Shown: positions 6,132-24,964 of the stretch, one piece after another
Position numbering within the stretch: the first letter of the stretch is position 1
Layout: every line of letters starts with the position of its first letter
Assembly: GCA_039589035.1 (NCBI GenBank)
Contig: JBDHIC010000002.1
Coordinates: 1 to 36,540, forward strand
DNA length: 36,540 nt
Direction: 5' to 3'
Origin: Gemmatimonadota bacterium
Lineage (GTDB): Bacteria > Gemmatimonadota > Gemmatimonadetes > JACCXV01 > JAHWKZ01
Made by a program: the position numbers and the translations under genes
The notes under the pieces: generated by a model
The model's input: the letters and a program-made list of their open reading frames with translations, nothing else
Told to the model about the DNA's origin: nothing
Database searches by the model: none

Positions 6132-6167
6132 GCTTACGAGTTCTTGGTTTGGGAAAGGGGAAAGCCG

Positions 6168-6314
6168 ATGATCCTTCATCTTCTGCTCGGAGCTGCGATC
6201 GGGGCTGTCATAGGTGTAGCGCTCGGGAGTCTTTGGAAGGGCGCGCTCATCGGGGCCGTCATCGCAGGCGGAATCCACTGGTGGCGCGGTCGTGCCGGAC
6301 AGATGGGTTCCTAG
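6168..6314 (+). CDS. Small glycine-zipper membrane protein (GlsB/YeaQ/YmgE-like), 48 aa
   Basis: Not in the ORF track (<60 aa). ATG 6168 after GGGAAAGGGGAAAG. Translates to MILHLLLGAAIGAVIGVALGSLWKGALIGAVIAGGIHWWRGRAGQMGS, with TAG at 6312-6314. Confidence 0.45.
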   Translation: MILHLLLGAAIGAVIGVALGSLWKGALIGAVIAGGIHWWRGRAGQMGS

Positions 6315-6318
6315 GTCG

Positions 6319-7443: not shown

Positions 7444-7541
7444 CCGTGCCCCCTTGTGTCGAGGAATGGTTGCGAGTCTTGACTCCGGTCAGAGTAGGCG
7501 GGGCGATGGGCGATCGCAAGGCTTCATCAGTATGAGTTCCC

Positions 7542-8414: not shown

Positions 8415-8520
8415 GGGATCGCGACTACGCCCGTAGAGGGAATCCCCCTACAGACATCGCCGTCCGTTCGGCGCTACGGTTGTTATGGTGTCAGTGAGGA
8501 CATCATAGGAGGCGATTACC

Positions 8521-9858: not shown

Positions 9859-9885
9859 GTCGCTGACCCACGGGCGGTCCGCAGC

Positions 9886-12003: not shown

Positions 12004-12074
12004 CGAGCATCCGGCTCGCTGCGATCGTCGAGTTTTAGGCTGGCCGACTCGCCGCAAGGACATGTCTGGCGCAA

Positions 12075-12108
12075 AACGGCCCCCGACCAAAGGCGATCGG
12101 GGGCCGTT
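12075..12108 (-). terminator. Stem-loop downstream of the 5'-nucleotidase gene (possible intrinsic terminator)
   Basis: Perfect 12-bp inverted repeat AACGGCCCCCGA / TCGGGGGCCGTT with a 10-nt loop. On the minus strand it runs into TTTTGC, a short U-tract that partly lies in the stem. Confidence 0.4.
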
Positions 12109-12134
12109 CGATAAAGGCCAAAGCGAGTTGATGG

Positions 12135-13997
12135 CTACGGAAGCTCTGTGATGCGGCCCTCTCCGCCGAACGGGTACTGAGCGGCAGTGATCAAGCTACC
12201 CAACCCGTTCTGGATGTAGTTCGACAGAGCCTGCTGATAGGTCACGCCCAGCGTCGTAAAGGGCGCACCTCCGAACGGGTACTCGTCGCCACCCTTGGCC
12301 AGGAAGTCGATCGTTGCGACGGTGAGGTCGGTGCCGGCTACGACGGCACCACCGGTGACGATCATCGTCCCGTCGTCCAAGGTGACTTCCTTGACCCGCG
12401 CGCCGGGTGGATCCGAGCGCACGTAGACAAAGCTGAAGCCCGACACTTGGGCGAAACGGCCGTTGCCCGGCAACGCGCTCACTGCGTTCTCGAGAATATC
12501 CTTGAACTGCGACCGAGGGATGTTCTCGAGCACCGTCACGAAGTTCGGGAAGGGGACCATGCTGAATGTCTGCAGCTCGGTGATGTTGCCCGCGGGAATG
12601 ACGGAGTCGTTGCGGATTCCACCACCGTTCTGGAGTGCCACGTCGGGTGGTGCGACACCGAAGCTGGCGGCGAGTTGCTCAGCCTGCCACTTGAGCGCAT
12701 CGGCGATCAGGTTGCCTTCGTTGGTCTCGAAGTTCCGGACCGAGGACCGGAGACCGTCGAGATCGACCTCGGAGACCCCGATGACGTTCGAAGCGAGGTC
12801 GGCCAATCCGGCCACCACCGGGTCGACGACCCGCGACTGCACGAGCGGGTCGGGTGACACGGCGTCAGGGTAGCCGCCGCCTGCCACACGGACGGGTCCG
12901 CTGTCGTCATCGATGGCGATCAACTCACCGGCCTTGTTGAACCCGACAATCAGTCGTCCGACGTACTTGTAGTTACCCGATGTGGTAACGACCGGCACCG
13001 GCGTTCCGTCCATGTCGGTGGCGATGACCGGGTACCCTCGCGGATCGGCGACGTCTCCAGGAATCAGCAGATCGTCGGGGTTTGCGAGCAGCTCGTCGCC
13101 ACCACCGGCAACGACGATATCGACCCCGTCCAACATCGGAATCAACGTCAGGTCCTCATCCAAGCTCTGCAGGTGAGCGATCAGGATGATCTTGTTGATC
13201 CCCATCATTTCGAGCTTGTCCACCTCGTTCTGGATCTCCCCGGCCACATCGCCGAGGACGATCACATCGCGGGGGCTGGAGATAAAGGGCAGGTCCGGCG
13301 TGGTGGCCCCGATGACGCCGACCTCCTGGCCTCGCTTTACAACGACTGTGCTCTCGGCGATCAGGCCCGCACCAAAAAGTCCCTGCAGACGCGGTTCGCC
13401 GGAGAAGTCGAGGTTGGCGCTCAAGAACGGGGGGTTGGTGAAGCTGAACGACTCGATGAAATCGGCTAGAACATCAGGCCCGAAATCGAACTCGTGGTTT
13501 CCGATCGCTAGCGCGTCGTAGCCGATCAGATCGAGCCCTATCGCGTCGAAGAACGGGACTCCGTTCTGAATACTCAGGTTGAATTCCGGGCCCGCCAAAT
13601 AGTTGTCGCCGGACGTTAACAGAATGGCAGCAGCTCCGGGGTTACTGGTGTTTCGGGGTGGCGGTCCGGTAGCGCCCTTGTCCGCCAGCATCATCGAAGA
13701 GCTGGCTAGCGGTGCGTTCCCGGCCCGCGGGCCTCTCTTTGCTTCGAGCTTGAGGTTCTCGACCACCGTGGCGAAGCGGGCGATGCCGCCAAAGTCCGCC
13801 AGCACTCCATCTCCGGCGTCGATGAGCTGCGACTCACCATCGTTGTTGTGCAGCATGGTGAGCCAAAAATGGATGTTGGCGTCATTTCTGCCTTCGGTGA
13901 GACTGATGATGCCGCCGGATTCTGACGGCGGCCCAGCCACATCGTCGCTACAGCCGACAAACAGCAGAATGGCAGCCAGAGCACACAGACGTCTCAT
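12135..13997 (-). CDS. Lipoprotein bifunctional metallophosphatase / 5'-nucleotidase (UshA-like)
   Basis: 620 aa. Lipobox LLFVGC. Metallophosphoesterase motifs 'LHNNDGES', 'GDNY', 'GNHEFD', 'IAHL'. C-terminal 5'-nucleotidase substrate-binding domain ('NGGGIR', 'FLAKGGDEY'). Confidence 0.85.
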   Translation of the reverse strand: MRRLCALAAILLFVGCSDDVAGPPSESGGIISLTEGRNDANIHFWLTMLHNNDGESQLIDAGDGVLADFGGIARFATVVENLKLEAKRGPRAGNAPLASSSMMLADKGATGPPPRNTSNPGAAAILLTSGDNYLAGPEFNLSIQNGVPFFDAIGLDLIGYDALAIGNHEFDFGPDVLADFIESFSFTNPPFLSANLDFSGEPRLQGLFGAGLIAESTVVVKRGQEVGVIGATTPDLPFISSPRDVIVLGDVAGEIQNEVDKLEMMGINKIILIAHLQSLDEDLTLIPMLDGVDIVVAGGGDELLANPDDLLIPGDVADPRGYPVIATDMDGTPVPVVTTSGNYKYVGRLIVGFNKAGELIAIDDDSGPVRVAGGGYPDAVSPDPLVQSRVVDPVVAGLADLASNVIGVSEVDLDGLRSSVRNFETNEGNLIADALKWQAEQLAASFGVAPPDVALQNGGGIRNDSVIPAGNITELQTFSMVPFPNFVTVLENIPRSQFKDILENAVSALPGNGRFAQVSGFSFVYVRSDPPGARVKEVTLDDGTMIVTGGAVVAGTDLTVATIDFLAKGGDEYPFGGAPFTTLGVTYQQALSNYIQNGLGSLITAAQYPFGGEGRITELP

Positions 13998-14109
13998 AGG
14001 GGGGACCCTCCGAATTGTGTGTAAAGACCGCTCTCTGGCCTGGGAGAGAGTACGATGGGGGATGAGTTAACTCGTGTGGACGGTTTCGGCTAGCCTGGGT
14101 GGGCTGGCA

Positions 14110-16266
14110 CTAGGCTGAGCGCTCGAACTGGTCGGTGGCCTCCGACTGAGGCGGGGGCGCCTCCTTGCGATCGCTCCACATGGCCTCAAAACGGTGGCGC
14201 GGCATCGGTTGCGCAATCAGGTAGCCCTGAACTACGTCGCACCCTTCGGCGCACAAGTAGTCGTACTGCTCCTGGGTCTCGACACCTTCGGCGACGACCT
14301 CCAACCGTAGCTCGTGTGCCATCGCGATGATCGCCGACACAATGCTGGCCTCGGTCGAGTCCTGGATCAGGTCGCGCACGAACGATCGGTCGATCTTGAG
14401 GCGGTCGAGTGGAAACCGTTTCAGATAGCTCAGCGAAGAGTAGCCGGTACCGAAGTCGTCAATCGCAATACGGACGCCCAGATCCTTCAGGTTTGTCAGT
14501 TGGGTTCGGCTCGTTGCCGTGTCCTCCATGAGAACGCTCTCGGTGAGTTCGAGCTCGAGATACGAAGGATCGAGCCCCACCCCCATGATGGCGTTGGCGA
14601 CCTTGATTACGAGATCTGAATCGCGAAATTGTCGCGCTGACAGGTTTACCGAAAGGCGCAGGGGACCGATCTCAGCCTCGACCCATGACGCCGCCTGCGC
14701 GCAGGCTTCTTCGAGCGTCCATTCGCCCATGGGCAGAATCAGGCCCGTCTCCTCGGCCACCGGGATGAACCTTCCCGGGAGCACCATCCCGTGCTCTGGG
14801 TGGTTCCACCGCATGAGGGCTTCGACGCCGGTAATCTGGTGGTTGTTGAGCGATACGAGTGGCTGATAGAAGAGCCCGAGCTCACTGCGCTCGATCGCGT
14901 GCCGAAGATCGTTCTCGATCTCAAACCGTTTTTGATCCCGATCGTCGAGATCCTCCGTGTAGAACTGGTAGTTGTTTCGACCCGCGTCCTTGGCACGGTA
15001 CAAGGCGTTGTCCGCCTTCATGAGCAAGGCCTCAGGGTCCGATTCCTCCGAGAAGAGAATGAGCCCGATGCTGAACGACACGAAGATCTCGGCTTCATTG
15101 ATGTTGAACGGGAATGAGACGTTTTTCAGTATCCGTTCTGCCACCATAGACGCCTCTTTCTCGTTCTGAATGTCCGAGACTAGGATGATGAACTCATCCC
15201 CACCGATGCGCGCCACCATGTCTTCACTTCTCGAGATTCCTCGATCCTCGGTCGGATTATGGCGCACGCACTTTGTCAATCGGGAGGCCACCAAGCGCAG
15301 CAGTTCATCACCAGCCGAGTGGCCAAGGGTGTCGTTGACGCGCTTGAATCGATCGAGATCCAAGTACAGAATCGCTCCGGCTCCCAACGAATCCCTAGGC
15401 TTTAGAGCGGCTTCCAAGGCTGCTTTAAACGAACGCCGGTTTGGAAGGCCGGTCAGCAGGTCGTTATACGCCAGATGCTCCAACTTTTGCTCCAGCCGCC
15501 TTCGTTCGCTGACGTCCTGGATTGTGCCCACGATGCCGGTTGGCTTGCCTTCCTTGTCGAGTTGAACCTCGGCTTGTTCGTGAATGAAGGAAACGTTGGC
15601 GTCCGGCCAAAGAAGTCGATAATGGATCTCGTACGGATCGCCTACTGTCAGTGCTCGATCCCGAGCATCGCTAATCAACTGCAGATCTTCAGGATGGATC
15701 GATTTCGAAAAAGTCTCCAGCGTCAGCGGTTCTTCCTCGGCGAGACGGAATACTTCTCGCGTTTCATCCGATATGTGAGTCACGGTTCCAGCGAGATCGA
15801 TCTCCCAGCTCCCAAGCCTGGAGATGCGCTGCGCGTCCGCGAGACGGGCTTGGCTACGAACGAGGTTTCGCGTGTTCTCGCTCGCCCGCTGGATATACTG
15901 GAGGCGTTGATTGAGTATTTGCCAATTCACGGGCTTGGTGATGAAGTCTGTTGCGCCGGCCTGGTAGGCGCGCTGGATCGAATTGGTGTCCTCCAGCCCC
16001 GTCAGCATGACGATCGGTATGTTCTTGGACCACTCGTCCTCGCGGAGCTTTGCGCAGATCGTGAACCCATCGACGTGAGGTAAAATAACGTCAAGCAAGA
16101 CGATATCCGGCATGACTCTGCGCACGACGTGAACGACGTGGGCACCGTCGGCTACCTCTTCCACAAGAAAACTGTTCTTTTCCAGCGCGCGACGGAGCAG
16201 GGCGCGCTGCGTCGCATCGTCGTCGACGACTAGGATTAGCGGCGCTTGACGCCCGGTCTCGCTCAT
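14110..16266 (-). CDS. Response regulator with REC-PAS-GGDEF-EAL architecture (c-di-GMP synthesis/turnover)
   Basis: Start at ATG 16266 (MSETGRQAPLILVVDDD) overlaps the kinase stop as ATGA. Phospho-acceptor 'VLLDVILP'. PAS region. Intact 'GGDEF', 'EAL' (GVEALMRW) and 'DDFGTGYSSL' motifs. Confidence 0.9.
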   Translation of the reverse strand: MSETGRQAPLILVVDDDATQRALLRRALEKNSFLVEEVADGAHVVHVVRRVMPDIVLLDVILPHVDGFTICAKLREDEWSKNIPIVMLTGLEDTNSIQRAYQAGATDFITKPVNWQILNQRLQYIQRASENTRNLVRSQARLADAQRISRLGSWEIDLAGTVTHISDETREVFRLAEEEPLTLETFSKSIHPEDLQLISDARDRALTVGDPYEIHYRLLWPDANVSFIHEQAEVQLDKEGKPTGIVGTIQDVSERRRLEQKLEHLAYNDLLTGLPNRRSFKAALEAALKPRDSLGAGAILYLDLDRFKRVNDTLGHSAGDELLRLVASRLTKCVRHNPTEDRGISRSEDMVARIGGDEFIILVSDIQNEKEASMVAERILKNVSFPFNINEAEIFVSFSIGLILFSEESDPEALLMKADNALYRAKDAGRNNYQFYTEDLDDRDQKRFEIENDLRHAIERSELGLFYQPLVSLNNHQITGVEALMRWNHPEHGMVLPGRFIPVAEETGLILPMGEWTLEEACAQAASWVEAEIGPLRLSVNLSARQFRDSDLVIKVANAIMGVGLDPSYLELELTESVLMEDTATSRTQLTNLKDLGVRIAIDDFGTGYSSLSYLKRFPLDRLKIDRSFVRDLIQDSTEASIVSAIIAMAHELRLEVVAEGVETQEQYDYLCAEGCDVVQGYLIAQPMPRHRFEAMWSDRKEAPPPQSEATDQFERSA

Positions 16267-19200
16267 GCCGTGTTCGCCAGTCGAGCCGGGTCTGGCACCG
16301 GCGGCTGCACTTCGGCCCGCAACGCGACGATGACAGCCGCGAACTCGCTCTCGATCTGAACCACAATCGATTCCGCTGGCTCGACGGAACCATCGGCGGC
16401 CAACGCTTGGACCTCCTTGCAAAGCGCGGACAGGTCAGTCGCGCCGAGGCTGGCGCTGCTCGATTTCAGGGTGTGGGCGGCAACCTTGAGCGCGGGAGCA
16501 TCGTTGGCCCGCAGCGCGGCCTTCATCTCCTGGATCAGGTCTCCGGTGTCGCTGATAAACTGTTCGATGATGTTCTGCAAGAACTCCGAGTCGTCATCCG
16601 TCATGAGTGAGCGGATCTCGGCAAGCCTGCTGGCGTCGAGCACGACCGCTTGCGCAGGAGCCTGAACCGGCTGCACTTGGTCGTCTTGCTCGTCAATTTG
16701 CGGATCCAATCCGTTGGGCATCCAGCGCTTGAGAGTCTCTGCCAGATCGTTGAGTCGGAAAGGCTTCCTCAGGTAGTCGTTCATGCCAAAGGGAAGCCCG
16801 CCTTCCGATTGACTGTTTAGCTCATGACCGGTGACGGCAATGATCGGAATGGGCTCTTTGTCGGTGATCGTGATCTCCCTGGCGCGTAACGCCCGCGCCG
16901 CCTCAAAACCGTCCAACCCGGGCATCTGGCAATCCATCAGAATGACGTCGTACTCAGCCTTGCCCACGACATCGAGCAGTTGAGCACCGTCTCTGACGAC
17001 GTCTACTTCGCAACCCAGTTTCTTCACCATGATCGAGATCAAGTCCTGGCTCGTGGTGTTATCCTCCGCCAAGAGGACCCGAAGGCCCAGGGACTCTCGC
17101 TCTTGAGTGTCGCTTGGCTCTGACGTCTTCATTGGCGATTCCTCTCTTGGCTGTTGACCAATCCAACGGACGATCGTTTCTTGCAGTTCATTGCAGCTGT
17201 ACGGCTTGCTCAGGAAGTCATTCATACCAGCCGCGAAGCATGCGTCGCGCGTTCTCTGTAACGCGTATGCGGTCAGGGCGATAATCGGGATGGGCTGGTC
17301 TCCATTCTGTGTTTCGTGTTCGCGGATCCGTCGGGTGGCCTCGAACCCATCCATCTCTGGCATCTCGCAATCCATCAGAATCAGATGAAAGCTCTCTTTG
17401 TCAAATGCTTCAAGCGCCGCGATTCCTGTCCCTACCACTGTCGTTTCGCACCCGAGTTTTCCGAGCATGGCGAGCGCCACCTGCTGATTGACGGCATTGT
17501 CTTCTGCCAGCAGGACGCGCACCCCGGTGGTGTCGTCGTTTCTGAGTGAGCCCTGTGCACCGCCAAGCTCTGATCTGGCCAGCTGCTGCTCCGACGATGG
17601 GGACACGTAGGCCGCCAGTTTCTCGAAGAGTTGGGTTTGGGATACGGGCTTGGTTAGGCAGCACAGAACGCCTTGATCCCGCAGCAACTGTGAGTCACGC
17701 TCGAACCCGAGAGAAGTCAGCAGAACGAGCTGCGTTTTGGCCAAGCTCGGATCAGATCGGATCGCATAGGTGAGCTCCAACCCGTCCATGCCGGGCATCT
17801 TCATGTCGAGGATCGCGAGGTCAAAGGGGTCGTCTGCTGAGACAGCCCTTCTGAGCATAGCGATGGCCTCGAAACCATCCGCTGAGCAGTCGGTCCGCAT
17901 GCCCAATGAACGCAGCTGGTTTTCCAGGATTTCACGGTTCGTCTGGCTGTCGTCGACTACCAGAACATGAAGCCCCCTGAGCTGCAGGTAGTCGGCTCGC
18001 CCGGTCTCGGTCTCGAGTCCGGCGACGTTTGCCAGTTGAATCCTGAACCAGAATGTGGATCCACCGCCTTCCTTGCTGTCGGCGCCGATCTCGCCGCCCA
18101 TTGCCTCAGCAAGCTGTTTGGAGATGGCCAGACCCAAACCTGTGCCCCCGAACCTTCTAGATGTCGAGCTGTCTGCTTGGTCGAAGAGGTTGAAGACGCG
18201 CTCACGCGCCTCAGGAGAGATGCCGACGCCGGTGTCCTTGACTTCAACCTGAAGCGTCGTATGGCTATCATATTGCTGCGGGCACCAGGCGCTTACGACG
18301 ACCTCACCTTCCTGGGTAAACTTGATCGCATTGCTGGTGAGGTTGACGATCACCTGGCGCAAACGACCGGGGTCCCCGACGACCCGCCGGGGCACCTCGC
18401 TCGCGATTTCGCATGCCAACTCGATATCCTTTTTGTAGGCCTCCTCGGCGAACATGCCGACGGCTTCGTCGATCAACATCCACAGGTCGAACTCAACCTC
18501 CTCGAGGACAAGCTTTCCGGCCTCGATCTTCGAAAAGTCCAGGATGCTGTTGATTAACTCGAGCAACGTTTCACCCGACTTGCGGACAGTGGTCGCGAGC
18601 TCGTGCTGAGATTCGCTCAACTCGGTCTGAAGAAGCAGCTCAGTCATTCCGAGGACACCGTTCATCGGGGTCCGGATCTCGTGGCTCATCTTGGCCAGAA
18701 AGTCCGACTTCGCGTTGTTGGCGGCGTCCGCTGATTCTTTTGCCTGTTGGAGCTCAACGTTGGCTTGGGTGCGCTTCTCAACTTCGTTCTCCAGAAAGTC
18801 ACTGTGTTGTGCCAGCTGTATGCTCTGCGCCTGAATGTGGCTCAGCATTTGGTTGAACCCGCTGATCAGCGTACCGATCTCGTCCTTTGACTTTCTCGCC
18901 TCTGCTTGAACGCTGTAGTCCCCATCGATCGAGATCTTCTTCATGACATTCGTCAGCGAGCGGATCGGGTCCGAGATACGTCGCTGAAACATGGCCGACA
19001 GAATGAAGGCCAAAAGCGAAAGGGAGATCAGCACGATGCCGCCAACGTCTCCATAAGACTCGATGCGAGAGCGAAGAACTCCGAGGTCGGATCGGATCCA
19101 AAGGGTACCGACCGTCTGCCCGTCGACGACGATCTTTTTGGTAAGGTCTAACGCGTCTCTCGAGAACCGATGGTGGACAGCTCCGGCGAGTAGCTGTGGG

Positions 19201-19568
19201 TCAGCGTCCAGAATGGCCTGGATCAGATCTTGATCGGCTGAAGGGTCGTGATCGGGGTCGCTCCGGACGTAGCTGGCGAAGACCTCATCGTGGGCCGTTA
19301 CGATAAACGCCGAGATTACATGGGGGTCGTTTCTGAGGTTGGCCAGGTGCTCTTCGGCAGCTCTGTCGTCTTCGCGGATTAGATCTTGCCCGGTACCGCT
19401 GGCGACGATCTCGGCGATCGTAGAGACATCTTCGACGAGATCCTTGCGCTGTCCGACTATATCGGTGATCAGGTAGACCGCGGAGGCCAGCAGCAGCACG
19501 ATTATGCTGGTGGCCACCATGATGGCGGTGAGCTTGAACCGGATCGACACGGTTGGTACGAAGCGCAT
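16263..19568 (-). CDS. Hybrid sensor histidine kinase: TM - periplasmic/CHASE8-like sensor - TM - HAMP - HisKA - HATPase - REC x3 - HPt
   Basis: 1101 aa. H-box 'SHEIRTPMNG'. ATPase 'GGTGLGLAISKQL'. Three receivers ('VLVVDDSQ..ILDMKMP', 'VLLAEDNAVN..LMDCEMP', 'VLLAEDNTTS..LMDCQMP'). C-terminal HPt 'AAHTLKSSSASLG'. Confidence 0.9.
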   Translation of the reverse strand: MRFVPTVSIRFKLTAIMVATSIIVLLLASAVYLITDIVGQRKDLVEDVSTIAEIVASGTGQDLIREDDRAAEEHLANLRNDPHVISAFIVTAHDEVFASYVRSDPDHDPSADQDLIQAILDADPQLLAGAVHHRFSRDALDLTKKIVVDGQTVGTLWIRSDLGVLRSRIESYGDVGGIVLISLSLLAFILSAMFQRRISDPIRSLTNVMKKISIDGDYSVQAEARKSKDEIGTLISGFNQMLSHIQAQSIQLAQHSDFLENEVEKRTQANVELQQAKESADAANNAKSDFLAKMSHEIRTPMNGVLGMTELLLQTELSESQHELATTVRKSGETLLELINSILDFSKIEAGKLVLEEVEFDLWMLIDEAVGMFAEEAYKKDIELACEIASEVPRRVVGDPGRLRQVIVNLTSNAIKFTQEGEVVVSAWCPQQYDSHTTLQVEVKDTGVGISPEARERVFNLFDQADSSTSRRFGGTGLGLAISKQLAEAMGGEIGADSKEGGGSTFWFRIQLANVAGLETETGRADYLQLRGLHVLVVDDSQTNREILENQLRSLGMRTDCSADGFEAIAMLRRAVSADDPFDLAILDMKMPGMDGLELTYAIRSDPSLAKTQLVLLTSLGFERDSQLLRDQGVLCCLTKPVSQTQLFEKLAAYVSPSSEQQLARSELGGAQGSLRNDDTTGVRVLLAEDNAVNQQVALAMLGKLGCETTVVGTGIAALEAFDKESFHLILMDCEMPEMDGFEATRRIREHETQNGDQPIPIIALTAYALQRTRDACFAAGMNDFLSKPYSCNELQETIVRWIGQQPREESPMKTSEPSDTQERESLGLRVLLAEDNTTSQDLISIMVKKLGCEVDVVRDGAQLLDVVGKAEYDVILMDCQMPGLDGFEAARALRAREITITDKEPIPIIAVTGHELNSQSEGGLPFGMNDYLRKPFRLNDLAETLKRWMPNGLDPQIDEQDDQVQPVQAPAQAVVLDASRLAEIRSLMTDDDSEFLQNIIEQFISDTGDLIQEMKAALRANDAPALKVAAHTLKSSSASLGATDLSALCKEVQALAADGSVEPAESIVVQIESEFAAVIVALRAEVQPPVPDPARLANTA

Positions 19569-19650
19569 TCGAACGAGGTTGGTGACCCAACCCTCCGTCG
19601 GAGGAGAGTTAACCGCTAAACCAGGCGGGGGATTTCCGCTCTATCTATGG

Positions 19651-19665
19651 GCAAGCAACGTGCCA
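19651..19665 (-). promoter_or_regulatory. Sigma54 (-24/-12) promoter for the kinase/GGDEF-EAL operon
   Basis: The minus strand reads CTGGCACGTTGCTTGCC, i.e. TGGCAC-N5-TTGC with correct spacing, about 85-95 nt upstream of the kinase ATG (19568). Confidence 0.55.
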
Positions 19666-19710
19666 GTGGTGCGAAGCGTCACAACAGTGGCAACAGCGGT
19701 CATCTATCGA

Positions 19711-19724
19711 GGCAATTCATTGCC
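19711..19724. repeat. 14-bp inverted repeat GGCAAT-TC-ATTGCC (candidate regulator/UAS site), with a further GGCAA half-site at 19689-19693
   Basis: Perfect 6+6 palindrome read directly, lying about 50-60 bp upstream (minus sense) of the sigma54 -24 element. Confidence 0.3.
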
Positions 19725-20084
19725 ACAGGCTGAAATCGGGTACCCGGATGAGGCCTGTCGGCGTCGCGTTGCTACTGGTGGATTTCTTCGGTCTGCGTGG
19801 CTTTTGGGGATTCGCGGCAGGGTCGTTTGGTCGCAGTCCGGTACTATGCCGATTTCGACCACGTGCGGTCGAAACGCTCTATGTGTACGGGATTCTGAAA
19901 AATCGTTGCGCCGTCGGGTCACTAGTCTCGATTTCTGATCTGCAAATGGCCCCTAGAATGGGCCCCCGAAGTCGCGACTCGTTAGGAGGGCGTGACTCGC
20001 CACTAATCCGTGCATTTTGAGATAGCAGAGCTACTGACGGTGTTGCCGTAAATTGTTGAGTACGAATCGTTTTAGCGTTGCTGT

Positions 20085-20098
20085 GGAAAAGGTTTTCC
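20085..20098. repeat. 14-bp inverted repeat GGAAAA-GG-TTTTCC abutting the -35 box of the lipoprotein promoter
   Basis: Perfect 6+6 palindrome ending 12 nt upstream of TTGACT (20110). Candidate operator or activator site. Confidence 0.3.
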
Positions 20099-20109
20099 TA
20101 ACAAATATC

Positions 20110-20138
20110 TTGACTTTTTACGCCCATAGCGGTCTAAT
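20110..20138 (+). promoter_or_regulatory. Sigma70-like promoter (TTGACT - 17 nt - TCTAAT)
   Basis: -35 TTGACT at 20110-20115, 17-nt spacer, -10 TCTAAT at 20133-20138, in an AT-richer stretch. The predicted TSS near 20145 lies just upstream of the riboswitch-like element. Confidence 0.5.
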
Positions 20139-20150
20139 ACTAGCGTAATA

Positions 20151-20236
20151 CCCCATCCGATAAGGGCGATCCGGCCGGGAGGTCGGTCCGCAAAGCTACG
20201 GGTCTCGTCGAGATGGCCGGGCTGCCGAACATGGGG
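20151..20236 (+). promoter_or_regulatory. Candidate c-di-GMP-I (GEMM-I) riboswitch aptamer
   Basis: Closing helix CCCCAU(20151-56)/AUGGGG(20231-36). GGGCGAUCC junction. GNRA-capped hairpin CCGGCC-GGGA-GGUCGG (20171-86). Invariant-looking CGCAAAGC (20189-96). Second hairpin GGUCU-CGUCG-AGAU. 3' box GCCGGGCUGCCGA (20216-28). Same order as in Vc2-type GEMM-I RNAs as I recall them. Not verified with a covariance model. Confidence 0.6.
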
Positions 20237-20278
20237 TTGTCGGCCGACGACCTCAACACTTCACTGAAGAGGCAAATC

Positions 20279-21349
20279 ATGAATCGCACTGCAGGTTGGG
20301 TCCTAGGACTCGCCGTCCTGGGGTGGCTTACCGTGGGCTGTTCGGATAACTCGGGTCCGGTTGGAATATCATCGTTCGAGTCGAACGGGATCACGCTGGC
20401 TGCGGTATCTGAAGTGATCGATTTTGAGGGTGTACCGGAGGGAACTCAAAACCCGGTTGTATTTGGCGACGGTGGGAGCGGGCCGATCGCGACATCGGCG
20501 GGACCGGCCACGGCCTCGTGTCCCGACGCCGACACGGCGATCATCTACGACACGTCGGCAGGACCGGGTGCTGACCCCGATCTCGATGCTCAACCGGCGC
20601 AAGCGAATGTCCTCATCGTCGAGGAGGACTTGGCAGACACCGACGGTGATGGTGACCCCGACGATTGCTTCGACGGGGGGAACCTGACGATCGACTTCTC
20701 TGGCGTGGATGCCGCAGGGGTGACGGCCGAGTCGGTGGTGGTGCTGGACATCGAACAGGCCACTGGAGCCAACACGATCGACCTGTTGGGTCCAGGTGAC
20801 GCATTTATTACCTCGATTGACATCCCCTTCACTGGTGATGGAGGGATCACTGGACCAATCAACCTCGGTCCGACCGCTGGCGTCGTGAAGATGGTCTTCC
20901 ACTTCGTGACCTCGGGCGCAGTTGATGACCTCGTCTTCACACCACCCGATCGCGGGAATCAAGGGTGCACGCCAGGGAAGTGGAAGAACTGGACCGGCCT
21001 CAAGAGCCAGGCAAACATCTGGCCACCGACTGGTTACTCGCAGGGTCAATCGGTTGGTTCCGTGTTTACGGGTGTTCACGCGACTCTCGCCGGGACTACG
21101 CTCCTCGACGCGTTGGATGGTGGCGGTGGCCCTGGAATCATAGGCAAGCAGAAGATCCTCTTGCGGGCGGCTGTTGCGGCTCTCCTCAACGCGTCACACC
21201 CGGGAGTTGCCTATCCGCTCACCGAGGCAGAGGTCATCGCCATGGTCAATGCGGCACTGGCGGCGGGCACAGAAGGCGCATTGACGGACCTGGCGACCGA
21301 GCTTGACGACTACAACAACCTTGGTTGCCCGAGTGGTGATTTGACCTAG
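20279..21349 (+). CDS. Acidic lipoprotein of unknown function (riboswitch-controlled candidate)
   Basis: ATG 20279 six nt after GAAGAGG. Signal peptide and lipobox 'LGWLTVGC'. Asp/Gly-rich 'EEDLADTDGDGDPDDCFDGG'. C-terminal Cys-containing domain 'GCTPGKWKNWTG...LGCPSGD'. No family recognised. Confidence 0.75.
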   Translation: MNRTAGWVLGLAVLGWLTVGCSDNSGPVGISSFESNGITLAAVSEVIDFEGVPEGTQNPVVFGDGGSGPIATSAGPATASCPDADTAIIYDTSAGPGADPDLDAQPAQANVLIVEEDLADTDGDGDPDDCFDGGNLTIDFSGVDAAGVTAESVVVLDIEQATGANTIDLLGPGDAFITSIDIPFTGDGGITGPINLGPTAGVVKMVFHFVTSGAVDDLVFTPPDRGNQGCTPGKWKNWTGLKSQANIWPPTGYSQGQSVGSVFTGVHATLAGTTLLDALDGGGGPGIIGKQKILLRAAVAALLNASHPGVAYPLTEAEVIAMVNAALAAGTEGALTDLATELDDYNNLGCPSGDLT

Positions 21350-21399
21350 GTCATCGATTTCTGCGGTCGGAACGGCCGCAGCACTTCAATCCCCCGTGC

Positions 21400-21440
21400 G
21401 AAGGGGCCCTCGATTCGAGGGCCCCTTCTTTTTGTGTTTG
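21400..21440 (+). terminator. Rho-independent terminator of the lipoprotein gene
   Basis: Perfect 13-bp stem GAAGGGGCCCTCG / CGAGGGCCCCTTC with a 3-nt loop, followed by TTTTTGTGTTTG. Confidence 0.85.
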
Positions 21441-21443
21441 ACG

Positions 21444-24005
21444 CTAACTGGGAAGCTTGGCTTGCAGTCGCTTGAGGGCGGCCAGCAGATCGGGCGAGTC
21501 TTGCAGCACACCGCGAAAGGGATCGCTCTTCAGTTGACCTACACGTCGCGGCACCGAGCGGATGGTGTAGCGGTGGATGTCCAACCCCAACTTGATCTCG
21601 CTCCACTTGAGCGGCGTCGACACCGGGGCGCCGGCGATCGGCCGGATGCTGAATGGTGCTACAAGTAACTGCCCGCGGCGATTCTGTAAGTAATCCAGGT
21701 ACACCTTGCCCTCGCGATCGGCGATCGTGCGGGTGAGGGTGGCGATGTCGGAGTGGCGGGCGACGACGACCTGCGACAAGAGCTCGCCCAAGGCTCGCGA
21801 CATCGCATAGTCAAAGCGACCATCGAGCGGGACCAGCACGTGGAGCCCGGTCGACCCGCTCGTCTTCACGTAGGCTGGTAGCTCGATCTCTTTGCATAAA
21901 CTGTGGATAGCCCGTGCGACTTCGACCACGTTCTCAAATGGAGCATCCTTGGGATCGAGGTCCAGGATGCACCAGTCGGGGTAGTCGAGCGACTCAACCC
22001 GGCTGGCCCAGATGTGAAGCGGGATCGTGGCCATGTTGGCCAGATACAGCAGAGTCGGGAGATCGTCGCACACCACGTAAGCGAGCTCGCGCTCGGAGTG
22101 CTCGCTCCAGATCGGGACGGTGCGGATCCAGTCGGGGACGAAACCTGGGGTGTTCTTCTGGTAGAACGAGTCGCCTTCGATTCCGTCCGGAAAACGGGTC
22201 AGGACCAGCGGTCGATCGCGAAGGTAGGGGAGTAATGCCGGGGCGATCTTCCGGTAGTACTCGAACAAGTCGCGCTTGGTGTACCCATCGTCCGGCCAGA
22301 AGACCTTGTCGGGGTTCGATAAGCGCACTTCACCGGTCGCCGGTTGTTCGATTTCACTGTTCGTAGCATCGGACCTCCGGACAGGCGCGGCCGACGCTGC
22401 CGCCTGATCCTCATCGGACCACGGCAGCTCGCATTCGGTGGGCTGCTTGTCATCGCGCAGGCGTAGAAACGCCGGTTGCCGGAGCAGCCCCTCCTCGGTC
22501 GCCTCGAGATACCGGACCTCGCAAATCAGATCGGGCTCGACCCAACGGTGGGCGGCTCCGGGTGGTGTCGGTCCGGTGAAGGGTGGGGTCTCGCGGTGGA
22601 GTTCATCCAGTGTCTCACGCAGGGAACGGAGCAAAACGTTGCTGAACCCGGTCCCGACTCGGCCTGCGTAACGCAACTCGTCATCTCGGTAGCCGCCGAG
22701 GTGCAACGCACCGAATCCGGTCCGTGACCCCTTGGGCAATGTGTAGCCGACGATCACGAAATCAGCGGTACGATCGGCGCGGACCTTGATCCAGTCACCC
22801 GATCGAGCACCACGATAGCGGCTGTCGGCCTTTTTGCCGACGACACCTTCGAGCCCCAGGCCGACGATCTGATGATAGAGATCCTCGCCGGTTTCGTCGA
22901 AATGCTCGACGTAGCGGAGCGGTCCAGTGGGGGGCAGAACCGTCTGCAGCAGTTGCTTGCGCTCGGTCAGCGGAAGTGACCGCAGGTCGTGACCCAACGC
23001 GGCCAGAATATCGAATACGTAGAACGTCGTCGGCTGATGTCGCGAGGTGCGCTGGATGTCGATCGCTCGCGTCAGCCGGGCGCGCTTCTGAAGCTGCTGA
23101 AAGCTGGGCAGCCCGGCGTCGTCGTGGGCGACGACCTCGCCGTCCAGGATTAGCTCGTCGTACGGCAACGCGGCGATCGCCGCAGCCAGCTCGGGGAAGC
23201 TCGGCGTCGCGTCGTTGCCATTTCGGGTTATCAGCTCGACGCCAGCGGCCGATCTGCCGCCCAGCATCCGATAGCCGTCGAGCTTGAGCTCGAAGACCCA
23301 CCCCGGTTTGGAGAACGGCTCTCGACGCGAGCGGGCCAGCATCATCTTGACCGTCGGTGCGCGCAGTGCGCGTCGCGGCGCTCCTAGTTCCTCCAAGCGT
23401 CGTTTCAGGTCTGCACCGGGATCGTACTCCTCGCCCAGCTGTTCGACCGTGAGCCCCGAGTGGACCGATTCTGGCGGCAGATCGTCCACACCTCCGGGGT
23501 CGTCTGGAGCGCGTTGGGCGTACTTCTTTTCACGGATCATCAACCATTCGTTTTCGCTCTTCTTGAGCTTCACCAGCGTCCACACTCCGCGCAGCTTGTA
23601 ACCGCGGAGCTCGAACAGGAGCTTGCCGGCTTCCAGTCCCTCGATCGGATCGTCCAGTGGGCGCCAAATGCCAAGGTCCCAAATGATCATTGCGCCGGCG
23701 CCGTAGCTGCCAGCCGGAATGACGTCCTCGAAGTCGATGTACTCGATGGGGTGATCTTCGACGTGCACGGCGAGGCGCTTGTCGGCTGGGTCCAACGATG
23801 GGCCCTTGGGGACAGCCCACGATTTGAGAACGCCGCCCATCTCGAGTCGCAGGTCGTAGTGCAGTCTGCGGGCCGCGTGTTTGTGAACGACAAACCCGCC
23901 ACCAGCTAACTGGCTGTCCGGCCGGGAGGCTAGCCCCGCGGGTTCCGGCGTCTTCGCGGCCGTTCGTTTGGCCTTGTACTCGCCTAGAGGATCGCGTTTT
24001 GGCAC
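21444..24005 (-). CDS. ligD: Multidomain NHEJ DNA ligase D (3'-phosphoesterase - ATP-dependent ligase - primase/polymerase)
   Basis: 853 aa. N-terminal PE domain 'FVVHKHAARRLHYDLRLE...SWAVPKGPS'. Ligase motif I 'ELKLDGYR'. C-terminal LigD polymerase domain 'LSNPDKVFWP...YYRKIAP...LTRFPDGI...DLDP'. GTG start. Confidence 0.9.
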   Translation of the reverse strand: MPKRDPLGEYKAKRTAAKTPEPAGLASRPDSQLAGGGFVVHKHAARRLHYDLRLEMGGVLKSWAVPKGPSLDPADKRLAVHVEDHPIEYIDFEDVIPAGSYGAGAMIIWDLGIWRPLDDPIEGLEAGKLLFELRGYKLRGVWTLVKLKKSENEWLMIREKKYAQRAPDDPGGVDDLPPESVHSGLTVEQLGEEYDPGADLKRRLEELGAPRRALRAPTVKMMLARSRREPFSKPGWVFELKLDGYRMLGGRSAAGVELITRNGNDATPSFPELAAAIAALPYDELILDGEVVAHDDAGLPSFQQLQKRARLTRAIDIQRTSRHQPTTFYVFDILAALGHDLRSLPLTERKQLLQTVLPPTGPLRYVEHFDETGEDLYHQIVGLGLEGVVGKKADSRYRGARSGDWIKVRADRTADFVIVGYTLPKGSRTGFGALHLGGYRDDELRYAGRVGTGFSNVLLRSLRETLDELHRETPPFTGPTPPGAAHRWVEPDLICEVRYLEATEEGLLRQPAFLRLRDDKQPTECELPWSDEDQAAASAAPVRRSDATNSEIEQPATGEVRLSNPDKVFWPDDGYTKRDLFEYYRKIAPALLPYLRDRPLVLTRFPDGIEGDSFYQKNTPGFVPDWIRTVPIWSEHSERELAYVVCDDLPTLLYLANMATIPLHIWASRVESLDYPDWCILDLDPKDAPFENVVEVARAIHSLCKEIELPAYVKTSGSTGLHVLVPLDGRFDYAMSRALGELLSQVVVARHSDIATLTRTIADREGKVYLDYLQNRRGQLLVAPFSIRPIAGAPVSTPLKWSEIKLGLDIHRYTIRSVPRRVGQLKSDPFRGVLQDSPDLLAALKRLQAKLPS

Positions 24006-24106
24006 AGCCCTAGCTTATATTCTTGCGTTCCATCCTTCACGAGTCACAGCTCCGGGTGCGTGTCGACCACCCGAGCTGGCGGACGATCAACCAGGAGGAA
24101 TCGCAT

Positions 24107-24964
24107 ATGGCGGCGCGCCCCATGGGATCGGCGACTATTTCGTTCGGGCTGGTTTCGGTGCCGGTCAAGCTCTACTCGACCTCGGAGAGTTCTCGCCGCA
24201 TTGCGTTCAACTGGATCCACGCTGAGTGCAATTCGCGCGTCCAGCAGCGATTCTGGTGTCCGGTGGACGAACAGATCGTTGAGCGGGATGAGCTCATGAA
24301 GGGCTATGAGTTTGCCAAGGATCAGTACGTGCTCTTCTCGCCCGAAGAGCTCAAGGTGCTCGACGCGCAGGCGACCAACAGCATCGATATCGCGGAGTTC
24401 GTTCCGCTCGAGAAGGTCGAACGGCTATACCTTGATCGAGCGTACTATCTCGGTCCCGAAGGCGGGGGCGAGCGGGCGTACCGGCTGTTGAGCGCGACGC
24501 TTCGCGAGACCGGCCGCGCGGCCCTCGGGAGCTACGCCGCGCGGGGCAAGCAGTATCTCGTCCTGGTGCGACCGATCGAAGACGGACTCGTGATGGAGCA
24601 GCTTCGATACGCGGACGAGATCCGCCCCTTCTCCGAGGTCCCGATCGGTGACGGCGAGGTAAAGAAGGAAGAGATGAAGCTCGCCGTTCAGCTGGTCGAG
24701 CAGGGATCGAATGACGAATACGATCCCAAGCAGTACACGGACGAAGTGCACGGACGGGTCATGGCGCTGATCGAGCAGAAGATCGAGGGTGAGGAGATCA
24801 CCGCCGCCCCGGAGCCCAAGGCGGATACGAAGATCATCGACCTCATGGATGCTTTGAAGGCCAGCCTCTCGGAGCCCGAGAAGCCGCAAAAGAAGGCCCG
24901 CAAGTCGGCCAAGCGAACGGCGAGTCGGAAAAAGACGAAAGCACGCAAGTCGAGTGGAGGCTGA
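24107..24964 (+). CDS. ku: Ku DNA end-binding protein with basic C-terminal tail
   Basis: AGGAGGAA RBS 6 nt before ATG 24107. 'ISFGLVSVPVKLYS...' Ku core. Lys/Arg-rich tail 'KPQKKARKSAKRTASRKKTKARK'. Divergent from ligD. Confidence 0.9.
   Translation: MAARPMGSATISFGLVSVPVKLYSTSESSRRIAFNWIHAECNSRVQQRFWCPVDEQIVERDELMKGYEFAKDQYVLFSPEELKVLDAQATNSIDIAEFVPLEKVERLYLDRAYYLGPEGGGERAYRLLSATLRETGRAALGSYAARGKQYLVLVRPIEDGLVMEQLRYADEIRPFSEVPIGDGEVKKEEMKLAVQLVEQGSNDEYDPKQYTDEVHGRVMALIEQKIEGEEITAAPEPKADTKIIDLMDALKASLSEPEKPQKKARKSAKRTASRKKTKARKSSGG

What the first reader, a model, noticed from the sequence alone, without database searches (positions are those of the whole stretch)
14110..21349. Apparently self-contained c-di-GMP circuit: sigma54 promoter, phosphorelay kinase, GGDEF-EAL regulator and riboswitch-gated lipoprotein in one divergent locus
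A hybrid kinase (three receivers plus HPt) is translationally coupled (ATGA) to a REC-PAS-GGDEF-EAL regulator with intact GGDEF, EAL and DDFGTGYSSL motifs. The operon is transcribed divergently from a gene whose leader looks like a c-di-GMP aptamer. Sensor, second-messenger enzyme, RNA receptor and a single effector gene are rarely this tightly co-localised. If real, the unknown lipoprotein is the dedicated output of this pathway, which gives a direct handle on its function. This linkage is inferred from synteny only.
Basis: inference. Interest (0 to 1): 0.65.

Follow-up and report, generated by a model that had tools for sequence, protein, structure and literature searches.

The report
Kinase–cyclase operon beside riboswitch-controlled lipoprotein

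Summary
On the minus strand, a CHASE8-HAMP hybrid kinase with three receivers and an HPt domain overlaps by ATGA a REC-PAS-GGDEF-EAL regulator whose catalytic motifs are all intact. A conserved sigma54-type -24/-12 element lies upstream. On the plus strand, a sigma70-type promoter precedes a canonical c-di-GMP-I aptamer (Rfam 52 bits against a cut-off of 35). This is followed by one monocistronic lipoprotein gene and a terminator.

The interpretation as a dedicated circuit does not hold. Among relatives sharing the same backbone (86-94% protein identity):
- Four lineages carry both cassettes.
- One (L169) keeps the kinase-regulator but cleanly lacks the 1.57 kb riboswitch-lipoprotein cassette.
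- One (L008) keeps the riboswitch-lipoprotein but has deleted the kinase-regulator, leaving a 108-nt remnant.
- One (L004) has a second riboswitch gene facing the lipoprotein gene.

More distant kinase-regulator pairs never carry the riboswitch or the lipoprotein. The riboswitch therefore most likely reads the cell-wide c-di-GMP pool.

The lipoprotein is predicted to have a lectin/CBM-like beta-sandwich plus a widespread C-terminal helical domain with no match to any solved fold. That C-terminal domain also sits directly behind c-di-GMP riboswitches in Thermoanaerobaculia.

Verdict: ordinary components, a new member of known kinds, modest interest.

The parts
14110..16266 (-). Response regulator REC-PAS-GGDEF-EAL (718 aa). 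Phospho-acceptor D59. I-site RSED346, GGDEF355, EAL482, DDFGTGYSSL603.
   Evidence: Pfam. Motifs. ATGA overlap with the kinase stop.
16263..19568 (-). Hybrid (unorthodox) histidine kinase: CHASE8-HAMP-HisKA(H296)-HATPase-REC(D588)-REC(D733)-REC(D879)-HPt(H1032).
   Evidence: Pfam. Residues. BarA/TorS-like but below every NCBIfam cut-off.
19650..19665 (-). Sigma54-type -24/-12 element TGGCAC-N5-TTGC, 82-97 nt upstream of the kinase ATG.
   Evidence: Core invariant and spacer variable in L001, L002 and L009; the element is identical in L169.
19880..21448 (+). Extent of the riboswitch-lipoprotein cassette: upstream control region, promoter, aptamer, CDS and terminator. This is the segment missing from L169.
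   Evidence: blastn break-points. Sequence of the L169 junction.
20085..20098 (.). Palindrome GGAAAAGGTTTTCC centred about 54 nt upstream of the inferred transcription start. Candidate transcription-factor site.
   Evidence: Read. GTGGAA-N5/6-TTCC is conserved in six loci, including those without the kinase. A regulatory function is inferred only.
20110..20138 (+). Sigma70-type promoter TTGACT-17 nt-TCTAAT. The inferred start, near 20145, is just before P1.
   Evidence: Read. Both hexamers are invariant in six loci. The scan tool missed it because it requires A at position 2 of the -10 hexamer.
20150..20237 (+). c-di-GMP-I aptamer including the P1 helix (20150-56 paired with 20231-37). The Rfam core is 20155-20229.
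   Evidence: Rfam, 52.1 bits. Own covariance model, 91.3 bits. 96% of cells paired and 10 of 20 pairs with double changes across 20 distinct sequences. Equivalents of G20, A47 and C92 are retained.
20232..20255 (+). 10-bp alternative hairpin UGGGGUUGUC-GGCC-GACGACCUCA. It shares 20232-37 with the 3' strand of P1 and contains the CCUC tract (20251-54). No U-tract follows it.
   Evidence: MFE folds. It forms in all six orthologous leaders (9-11 bp). An extra G on the 5' arm is matched by an extra U on the 3' arm in L004 and L008.
20267..20281 (+). Shine-Dalgarno AAGAGG (20267-72) and start codon ATG (20279-81).
   Evidence: Conserved in six leaders.
20279..21349 (+). Lipoprotein gene (356 aa). 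Signal peptide with a lipobox-like TVGC. Residues about 45-225 form a jelly-roll beta-sandwich with the acidic loop DTDGDGDPDDC. Residues 229-350 form a helical domain (GCTPGKWKNW ... NNLGCP).
   Evidence: Translation. No Pfam or NCBIfam hit. AlphaFold2 models. Foldseek.
21400..21428 (+). Intrinsic terminator (13-bp stem followed by TTTTTGTGTT) that closes the monocistronic unit.

Best explanation
Two separable cassettes lie back-to-back in a Gemmatimonadota-like genome.

Cassette A is an operon with a sigma54-type promoter. A periplasmic CHASE8 sensor drives a multi-step phosphorelay: H296, then a receiver Asp, then HPt H1032, then D59 of the regulator. The regulator has both a GGDEF domain (with I-site) and an EAL domain that look catalytically competent, so phosphorylation should shift its balance between making and degrading c-di-GMP, and with it the cellular pool.

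Cassette B is a sigma70-type promoter whose transcript begins with a canonical c-di-GMP-I aptamer. Ligand binding stabilises P1 and excludes a conserved 10-bp alternative hairpin. No U-tract follows that hairpin, so the output is most likely translation initiation and not termination. There is a weak lean towards OFF, because releasing the CCUC tract could mask the GAGG of the ribosome-binding site.

The product is a fast-evolving exported lipoprotein with a lectin/CBM-like beta-sandwich and a helical C-terminal domain of unknown fold. It is probably a glycan- or matrix-binding surface protein.

A can influence B only through the shared c-di-GMP pool. B is neither the dedicated output of A nor dependent on A.

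Shown here: the domain architectures, motifs, aptamer, competing helices, terminator and the presence/absence pattern among relatives. Inferred: the phosphorelay path, the enzyme activities, the sign of the switch and the function of the lipoprotein.
For: Components.

Separability:
- L169 (HK 90%, RR 86%, PLP enzyme 94%, LigD 90% identical to the window) has the kinase-regulator and the sigma54 element. Window 19880-21448 is replaced by about 35 bp next to LigD. There was no credible covariance-model hit with filters off (best 12.1 bits, E = 0.04, inside the 5'-nucleotidase gene) and no tblastn hit to the lipoprotein.
- L008 (PLP enzyme 90%, CoA ligase 89.5%) has an intact riboswitch (88 bits) and lipoprotein facing the 5'-nucleotidase gene. 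A 108-nt remnant of the regulator's 3' end shows a secondary deletion of about 5.8 kb.
- L004 has a second riboswitch-controlled signal-peptide gene at that position.
- Kinase-regulator pairs at 42-48% identity (L089-L096) have no riboswitch or lipoprotein. There were 0 aptamer hits in 79 independent loci covering 946 kb.

Kinase-to-regulator partnership: ATGA overlap and fusion proteins P0143, P0163, P0213, P0214 and P0235.

Riboswitch-to-lipoprotein link: present in the window, L001, L002, L004, L008 and L009.

Fold.
Against: - The two cassettes were probably neighbours in the ancestor of this clade and remain so in four sampled lineages. Some selective advantage of linkage therefore cannot be excluded.
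- The relatives are metagenome contigs or MAGs, so a missing cassette could sit elsewhere in the genome. That would break adjacency but not co-occurrence.
- The sign of the switch is not resolved. Computed ribosome-binding-site accessibility drops in four of six leaders when the P1 3' strand is blocked (0.48 to 0.39, 0.38 to 0.16 twice, 0.49 to 0.14) and does not in L004 and L008.
- No enhancer-binding protein for the sigma54 element was seen among the ORFs annotated in the window.
Confidence: 0.72

Rival explanations
1. Dedicated local circuit. The kinase-regulator pair is the main or only source of the c-di-GMP signal read by the neighbouring riboswitch, and the lipoprotein is its specific output. 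Divergent arrangement would ensure co-inheritance and co-expression.
For: The cassettes are adjacent and divergently arranged in the window, L001, L002/L003 and L009. They share a 580-bp intergenic region. The regulator has both catalytic domains intact.
Against: Each cassette persists intact without the other in equally close relatives (L169; L008). L004 carries a second riboswitch-controlled gene, so the riboswitch regulon in this genus has more than one member. Distant kinase-regulator pairs never carry the cassette. The lipoprotein gene has lesions at its lipobox in two lineages that keep the kinase (L001 and L009). An aptamer cannot discriminate the source of its ligand (established knowledge).
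Confidence: 0.15
2. The regulator acts essentially as a phosphorylation-controlled phosphodiesterase, with the GGDEF domain serving as a regulatory or GTP-sensing module. In that case kinase activation lowers c-di-GMP. With an OFF-type riboswitch this would induce the lipoprotein in the low-c-di-GMP state. This is a variant of the best explanation that differs in sign.
For: The best NCBIfam resemblances are to phosphodiesterases (DibA, PRK10060, DosP; all below cut-off). All EAL catalytic motifs are present. There is a weak computational lean towards an OFF switch.
Against: GGDEF and the RxxD I-site are both canonical. A comparable regulator, Legionella Lpg0277, is reported to be bifunctional (bioRxiv 10.1101/604611).
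Confidence: 0.3
3. The aptamer senses a different ligand: either it is the GGC variant class, or it is a cGAMP-type GEMM-Ib aptamer.
For: Related aptamers in L004, L011, L037 and L063 score best against RF03167, c-di-GMP-I-GGC.
Against: The RF03167 consensus has CGCGAAG at the A47 position, whereas all 21 aptamers collected here, including the window, have CGCAAAG. The G20 equivalent (GGGC) and C92 equivalent (GCCGAA) are also retained. G20-to-A is the cGAMP signature, from my own knowledge of the Vc2 and GEMM-Ib literature. The window itself scores best against RF01051.
Confidence: 0.04

Closest known systems
Vibrio cholerae Vc1 c-di-GMP-I riboswitch upstream of gbpA (PMC4744006)
   Same: A class I aptamer at the 5' end of the leader of a single gene for an exported protein. 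In Vc1 that protein is a carbohydrate-binding colonisation factor; here a carbohydrate-binding role is predicted only.
   Different: Vc1 is reported to be a positive (ON) element with a leader of roughly 225-244 nt. Here the platform is only about 40 nt and its sign is unresolved. The product is a lipoprotein with a different, uncharacterised domain set, and its glycan binding is a fold-level prediction (Foldseek E about 4e-4).
Clostridioides difficile c-di-GMP riboswitch regulon of surface proteins and the ZmpI protease (PMC6200980)
   Same: Riboswitches control cell-surface composition. The reported C. difficile pattern, in which adhesins and the metalloprotease that cleaves them are both under c-di-GMP riboswitches, resembles the Pseudomonas loci found here. 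In those loci, riboswitch-controlled M11-like metalloprotease genes flank a DUF7507-repeat protein that carries the same C-terminal domain.
   Different: Different phyla, protein families and expression platforms. No substrate relationship has been shown here.
Legionella pneumophila Lpg0278-Lpg0277 and Xanthomonas RavS-RavR two-component systems (bioRxiv 10.1101/604611; PMC6707612)
   Same: A histidine kinase phosphorylates a response regulator that carries GGDEF and EAL domains and so tunes c-di-GMP. Lpg0277 is reported to be bifunctional.
   Different: The kinase here is an unorthodox CHASE8 hybrid with three receivers and an HPt domain. Its promoter is sigma54-type (the Legionella operon is RpoS-dependent). 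It passes none of the named NCBIfam equivalog cut-offs.
BarA/TorS/ArcB-type unorthodox hybrid kinases
   Same: HisKA-HATPase-REC-HPt phosphorelay logic. BarA is the best NCBIfam hit (580 bits).
   Different: The score is below the BarA cut-off of 890 bits. The kinase has three receivers instead of one and a CHASE8 sensor. Its partner is a c-di-GMP enzyme, not a DNA-binding regulator.

Membership tests
c-di-GMP-I riboswitch (Rfam RF01051, GEMM-I) | Covariance-model score at or above the curated gathering score | tested here: met
   52.1 bits against 35, E = 1.6e-7, full-length match 1-87.
c-di-GMP-I riboswitch (Rfam RF01051, GEMM-I) | Ligand-contact nucleotides equivalent to Vc2 G20, A47 and C92 | tested here: met
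   GGGC, CGCAAAG and GCCGAA align to the consensus positions. Assigning these positions to G20, A47 and C92 rests on my own numbering of the Vc2 sequence. The contrast with RF03167 (CGCGAAG) comes.
c-di-GMP-I riboswitch (Rfam RF01051, GEMM-I) | Helices supported by covariation | tested here: met
   96.3% of cells paired, 10 of 20 pairs with changes on both sides, 0 of 500 shuffles reach the observed score, and slid controls give 9-43% paired. The alignment was fitted to the model, which favours the structure.
c-di-GMP-I riboswitch (Rfam RF01051, GEMM-I) | Located in the 5' leader, on the same strand as the controlled gene, with a competing expression-platform helix | tested here: met
   The promoter ends 12 nt before P1 and the ATG lies 42 nt after P1. 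A 10-bp hairpin overlaps the P1 3' strand in all six orthologous leaders.
c-di-GMP-I riboswitch (Rfam RF01051, GEMM-I) | Binds c-di-GMP and changes gene expression | not testable with these tools
   Requires in-line probing or ITC, and reporter assays.
Unorthodox hybrid histidine kinase phosphorelay | H-box His, ATPase domain, receiver Asp and HPt His all present | tested here: met
   H296 (SHEIRTP), HATPase_c, D588/D733/D879 and H1032 (HTLKSS).
GGDEF diguanylate cyclase | GG(D/E)EF active site, and RxxD I-site five residues upstream | tested here: met
   RSED346-MVARI-GGDEF355. Pfam GGDEF, 146.8 bits. Activity was not tested.
EAL phosphodiesterase | EAL, the N-loop, ExxE, DDFGTGYSS, KID, EGVE and QGY catalytic and metal-binding motifs | tested here: met
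   All were found, at residues 482-680. Pfam EAL, 260 bits. Activity was not tested.
Sigma54-dependent promoter | GG-N10-GC spacing (TGGCAC-N5-TTGC), conserved in orthologs | tested here: met
   (one mismatch at the last position). Core invariant and spacer variable in the aligned loci L001, L002 and L009; the same element is present in L169. By itself a match this good is expected 0.65 times per window.
Sigma54-dependent promoter | A cognate enhancer-binding protein and upstream activator sites | tested here: inconclusive
   No Sigma54_activat domain was found in the window ORFs scanned, but not every ORF was scanned. The partial palindrome GGCAATTCATTGCC at 19711-19724 is only a candidate site.
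Bacterial lipoprotein | Signal peptide ending in a lipobox with an invariant Cys | tested here: met
   LGWLTVG-C21 in the window, and GWVTVGCS in most orthologs. The fit to L-[AS]-[GA]-C is loose. The lipobox is deleted in L001, frameshifted in L009 and absent from distant homologs.
   Both cassettes are present in four lineages. Only the kinase-regulator is present in L169. Only the riboswitch-lipoprotein is present in L008. L004 has a different neighbour. Distant kinase-regulator pairs are never joined to the cassette.

The most novel reading that the evidence does not exclude
The C-terminal helical domain of the lipoprotein (GCTPGxWK ... LLRAAVAALLNA ... NNLGCP, about 125 aa) may mark a cross-phylum family of secreted surface proteins that is repeatedly placed under c-di-GMP-I riboswitch control.

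Evidence so far:
- The model is confident (pLDDT 85, pTM 0.82) and has no match among solved structures.
- Directly behind a riboswitch: the Gemmatimonadota lipoprotein, and three Thermoanaerobaculia proteins with different N-terminal parts.
- In 9 of 10 Pseudomonas loci, the domain-carrying gene lies beside riboswitch-controlled M11-like metalloprotease genes.

If this holds, it is an unrecognised c-di-GMP-regulated surface or matrix module, possibly an adhesin-protease pair like C. difficile CD2831/ZmpI.
Probability: 0.3. Interest if true: 0.55.

Novelty: new member of a known kind. Interest (0 to 1): 0.3.

Why it matters
As a "self-contained circuit" it would have given a clean, one-input, one-output model of c-di-GMP signalling. 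The comparative data show that it is not that.

What remains useful:
- A well-defined, short, probably translational c-di-GMP-I riboswitch in Gemmatimonadota, a phylum for which a full-text search here returned no paper dealing with c-di-GMP riboswitches (only two incidental mentions).
- A natural set of relatives that keep both cassettes, or the kinase-regulator alone (L169), or the riboswitch-lipoprotein alone (L008). This could serve as a built-in genetic control for testing coupling.
- An uncharacterised, widespread C-terminal domain whose association with c-di-GMP riboswitches gives a first functional handle on it.

Tried and rejected
1. GGC-variant riboswitch: rejected. RF03167 is the top family for several related aptamers, but all 21 sequences have A at the variant-defining position.
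2. The paper that defined the variant classes (PMC5358364) is not held. The position numbering is therefore my own derivation from the Vc2 sequence.
3. Terminator-type expression platform: rejected. The 10-bp hairpin has no U-tract, whereas the gene's own terminator has a canonical one.
4. Thermodynamic prediction of ON versus OFF: inconclusive.
5. Pfam, NCBIfam and PDB sequence searches for the lipoprotein found nothing. PF27764.1 is listed in the precomputed annotations of homologs but is absent from the local Pfam copy, so its description could not be read.
6. Foldseek with the full-length model matched only the N-terminal beta-sandwich, weakly. The C-terminal domain alone gave no hit below E = 3.
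7. The sigma70 promoter scan found nothing. The promoter was read by eye and from its conservation.
8. Distant full-length homologs (L005-L007, L010, L021, L078) have neither the riboswitch nor kinase neighbours.
9. The metagenome scan with the regulator returned only one true ortholog, which is the same contig as L002.


Full report
**1. What is in the sequence**

Minus strand. ORF 16263-19568 encodes a 1101-aa protein with CHASE8, HAMP, HisKA, HATPase_c, three Response_reg stretches and an Hpt domain. The phospho-sites are all present: H296, D588, D733, D879 and H1032.

Its TGA overlaps the ATG of the next gene as ATGA at 16263-16266. The mechanical ORF list extends that gene to a TTG at 16422, but the coupled ATG is the sensible start.

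The second protein (14110-16266, 718 aa) is REC-PAS-GGDEF-EAL. It has:
- the acceptor Asp D59;
- a canonical I-site five residues before GGDEF (RSED346 ... GGDEF355);
- the full EAL motif set: EAL482, ELELTE571, DDFGTGYSSL603, KID624, EGVE660 and QGY680.

Neither protein reaches the cut-off of any named NCBIfam equivalog. The best resemblances are BarA for the kinase and DibA for the regulator.

The sequence TGGCACgttgcTTGCc at 19650-19665 (minus strand) lies 82-97 nt upstream of the kinase ATG. A match this good is expected 0.65 times per window, so alone it proves little. However, in the aligned orthologous loci L001, L002 and L009 both core elements are invariant while three spacer positions vary, and L169 carries the identical element.

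Plus strand. Rfam finds one family above its gathering score in the whole window: c-di-GMP-I at 20155-20229, with 52.1 bits against 35.

- Extending the match gives a 7-bp P1 helix (20150-56 paired with 20231-37).
- TTGACT (20110-15), 17 nt, then TCTAAT (20133-38) lies immediately upstream. This puts the likely transcript start about 5 nt before P1. Both hexamers are invariant in six loci.
- The scan tool did not list this promoter because it requires A at position 2 of the -10 hexamer.
- The listed ORF starts at 20213, inside the aptamer, and some public gene calls make the same error (P0005 and P0012).
- The real start is the ATG at 20279, six nucleotides after AAGAGG. The product begins MNRTAGWVLGLAVLGWLTVGC|SDNSG.
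- A 13-bp stem with a T-run at 21400-21428 ends the unit before the convergent LigD gene.

**2. The aptamer is canonical**

Several related aptamers score best against RF03167 (c-di-GMP-I-GGC). That model's consensus has CGCGAAG, whereas all 21 aptamers collected here, including the window, have CGCAAAG. The window also keeps GGGC and GCCGAA at the positions that I map to Vc2 G20 and C92. The numbering is my own derivation, because the defining paper was not available.

On 20 distinct sequences, 96% of cells form standard pairs and 10 of 20 pairs show changes on both sides. No shuffle reached the observed score, and slid controls collapse to 9-43% paired. One caveat is that the alignment was fitted to the model.

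**3. Expression platform**

The 3' strand of P1 is also the 5' arm of a 10-bp hairpin: UGGGGUUGUC-GGCC-GACGACCUCA (20232-55).

- The hairpin forms in the minimum-free-energy fold of all six orthologous leaders (9-11 bp).
- In L004 and L008 an extra G on the 5' arm is matched by an extra U on the 3' arm.
- No U-tract follows, so this is not a classical terminator, and translational control is the likelier output.
- Blocking the P1 strand lowers the computed accessibility of GAGG in four of six leaders but not in L004 or L008.

I therefore give only a weak lean to an OFF switch.

**4. Is this a conserved unit?**

Lipoprotein homologs were collected and their contigs read.

- L001 (79% identity), L002/L003 (70%) and L009 have the same kinase, regulator, riboswitch and lipoprotein. 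They also share the whole backbone: PLP enzyme, CoA ligase, 5'-nucleotidase, then LigD, Ku, a TPR protein and kynurenine-pathway genes. That is plain collinearity and says nothing about function.
- L008 has backbone proteins as close to the window as those loci do (PLP enzyme 90%, CoA ligase 89.5%, 5'-nucleotidase 70.5%). It has an intact promoter, aptamer (88 bits) and lipoprotein gene directly facing the 5'-nucleotidase gene. blastn shows that window ~14249-20054 is missing and that a 108-nt remnant of the regulator's 3' end survives at 73% identity. The kinase-regulator operon was therefore deleted there.
- L169 is the closest relative found through the kinase (HK 90%, RR 86%, 5'-nucleotidase 84%, PLP enzyme 94%, LigD 90%). 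It keeps the kinase, the regulator and the identical sigma54 element. Window 19880-21448 is replaced by about 35 bp. The covariance model with filters off gave no credible hit (best 12.1 bits, E = 0.04, inside the 5'-nucleotidase gene), and tblastn with the lipoprotein gave none.
- L004 (LigD 90%) has the riboswitch-lipoprotein. On the other strand it has a sigma54-like element (TGGTACgtgacTTGCC), a second c-di-GMP-I aptamer and a different signal-peptide gene that runs off the contig end.

Further away:
- Regulator homologs at 43-48% identity still have a hybrid CHASE8 kinase immediately upstream at 42-45% identity. None has the aptamer or the lipoprotein: 0 hits in 79 independent loci covering 946 kb.
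- Single polypeptides that fuse the two architectures exist (P0143, P0163, P0213, P0214 and P0235).
- Full-length lipoprotein homologs at 32-44% identity have neither the aptamer nor kinase neighbours.

Conclusion: the kinase-regulator pair is one conserved module and the riboswitch-lipoprotein is another. They were neighbours in the ancestor of one narrow clade, and each has since been lost while the other stayed intact.

One caveat applies. These are contigs and MAGs, so a missing cassette might be elsewhere in the genome.

**5. The lipoprotein**

It has no Pfam or NCBIfam family.

The AlphaFold2 model built on 40 sequences has pLDDT 80.9. It shows a beta-sandwich at residues 45-225 and a helical domain at 229-350.

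- Foldseek matches the sandwich, weakly but consistently, to lectin and carbohydrate-binding modules: F-type lectins and CBM4, CBM6, CBM29 and CBM32, with E values around 4e-4 to 4e-3.
- The helical domain modelled alone (pLDDT 84.8, pTM 0.82) has no structural match below E = 3. It has no significant PDB sequence match either (best E = 0.054).

That domain is widespread. At least 507 tblastn-confirmed stretches were found among GTDB species representatives, from Acidobacteriota, Pseudomonas, Chloroflexota, Actinomycetota and other groups. It always sits at the C-terminus, behind variable parts such as DUF7507/DUF11-like repeats, DUF3344 and SdrD_B.

My covariance model found aptamers directly upstream of three such proteins in Thermoanaerobaculia: L011, L063 and L079. 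Rfam confirmed them.

In 9 of 10 Pseudomonas loci, aptamers precede genes of about 770 aa for M11-like metalloproteases with cadherin-like domains. These genes flank the domain-carrying gene.

The lipoprotein evolves much faster than its neighbours (54-80% identity against 86-94%). Its lipobox region is deleted in-frame in L001 and frameshifted in L009.

My inference is a surface-exposed, glycan- or matrix-binding accessory protein.

**6. Comparison with known systems**

- The riboswitch half resembles V. cholerae Vc1-gbpA, a class I aptamer before a carbohydrate-binding colonisation factor (PMC4744006).
- It also resembles the C. difficile riboswitch regulon of surface proteins and the ZmpI protease (PMC6200980).
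- The enzyme half resembles Legionella Lpg0278-Lpg0277 (bioRxiv 10.1101/604611) and Xanthomonas RavS-RavR (PMC6707612).

All membership features that could be tested for the aptamer, the kinase, the GGDEF and EAL domains and the lipoprotein were met.

**7. Verdict**

The parts are real and well formed, and each is an ordinary member of a known kind. The proposed dedicated circuit is not supported.

The most interesting residue is the recurrent link between c-di-GMP riboswitches and an uncharacterised C-terminal domain with no match among solved structures. Interest is 0.3.

Noticed in passing
L020, L024, L035, L037, L044, L046, L061, L066, L070 (e.g. L037: aptamers 6523-6611 and 13007-13095, minus strand; genes 4199-6466 and 10663-12951, minus strand; gene 7238-10402, plus strand): In several Pseudomonas species, c-di-GMP-I aptamers precede genes of about 760-790 aa for secreted M11/reprolysin-like zinc metalloproteases with cadherin-like C-termini. 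These genes flank a 1054-aa DUF7507-repeat protein that ends in the same C-terminal domain as the window's lipoprotein. The 3' strand of P1 (AAGGAGA) looks like the ribosome-binding site. The layout recalls the C. difficile adhesin/ZmpI arrangement.
   Followed up: partly
L011 8184-8309, L063 1703-1795, L079 7579-7695 (all plus strand): Three Thermoanaerobaculia proteins (429-876 aa) with different N-terminal parts end in the GCTPGYWKNH ... NNLGCP domain. Each sits directly behind a c-di-GMP-I aptamer.
   Followed up: partly
L004 132-280 (minus strand): A second c-di-GMP-I aptamer lies about 28 nt downstream of a sigma54-like TGGTACgtgacTTGCC element. It precedes a signal-peptide gene (MNYLRPTLVAMVVLGLA...) that is cut by the contig end. 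It faces the lipoprotein gene where the kinase sits in the window.
   Followed up: partly
window 20085-20098 and 19880-20110: The palindrome GGAAAAGGTTTTCC and about 150 bp upstream of the riboswitch promoter are conserved in all six loci, including those without the kinase. This suggests a transcription-factor layer of control on the lipoprotein gene in addition to the riboswitch.
   Followed up: partly
window 19711-19724: An inverted repeat, GGCAATTCATTGCC (TGGCA-N6-TGCCA type), lies about 50-70 bp upstream of the sigma54-type element. It is only partly conserved in orthologs. It may be an enhancer-binding-protein site.
   Followed up: no
L001 about 10109-10115; L009 about 10040-10050 (aligned to window 20331-20371): The segment encoding the lipobox (GWVTVGCSxSSxPVG) is missing. 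It is a 39-nt in-frame deletion in L001 and a frameshifting deletion in L009, between the short repeats GTCCTGG and GTCCGG. This could be decay or alteration of the export signal, or an assembly artefact.
   Followed up: partly
window 20213-20278: Mechanical ORF calling, and some public gene calls (P0005 and P0012), start the lipoprotein at an ATG inside the aptamer. This adds a spurious MAGLPNMGLSADDLNTSLKRQI extension.
   Followed up: yes
window 13998-14109: Only 112 nt and no terminator-like site separate the regulator's stop from the 5'-nucleotidase gene on the same strand (12135-13997, minus strand). The operon may therefore read through into it. In L008 that gene has its own upstream region.
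   Followed up: partly
L168 870-6828: The next-closest kinase homolog (54% identity) is followed by a TonB-dependent receptor and a DUF4154 (YfiR-like) gene, not by a GGDEF-EAL regulator. This fits the window kinase's below-cut-off match to the NCBIfam domain 'HK near YfiR-like' (166 bits against 194).
   Followed up: no
window 949-6131 and 21444-24964: Other window content: an NrfD / 4Fe-4S / multihaem cytochrome c cluster (949-3860, minus strand), an AlgE-type alginate-export porin (4731-6131, plus strand), and a LigD gene with a probable Ku gene forming an end-joining pair (21444-24964; the Ku call is by synteny with L001, not scanned here). No other c-di-GMP-related gene was seen among the ORFs scanned.
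   Followed up: partly
L007 12535-12688; L079 10463-10558: Incidental Rfam hits in unrelated loci: a glmS ribozyme, and a tRNA-Sec immediately after the riboswitch-controlled gene in L079.
   Followed up: no
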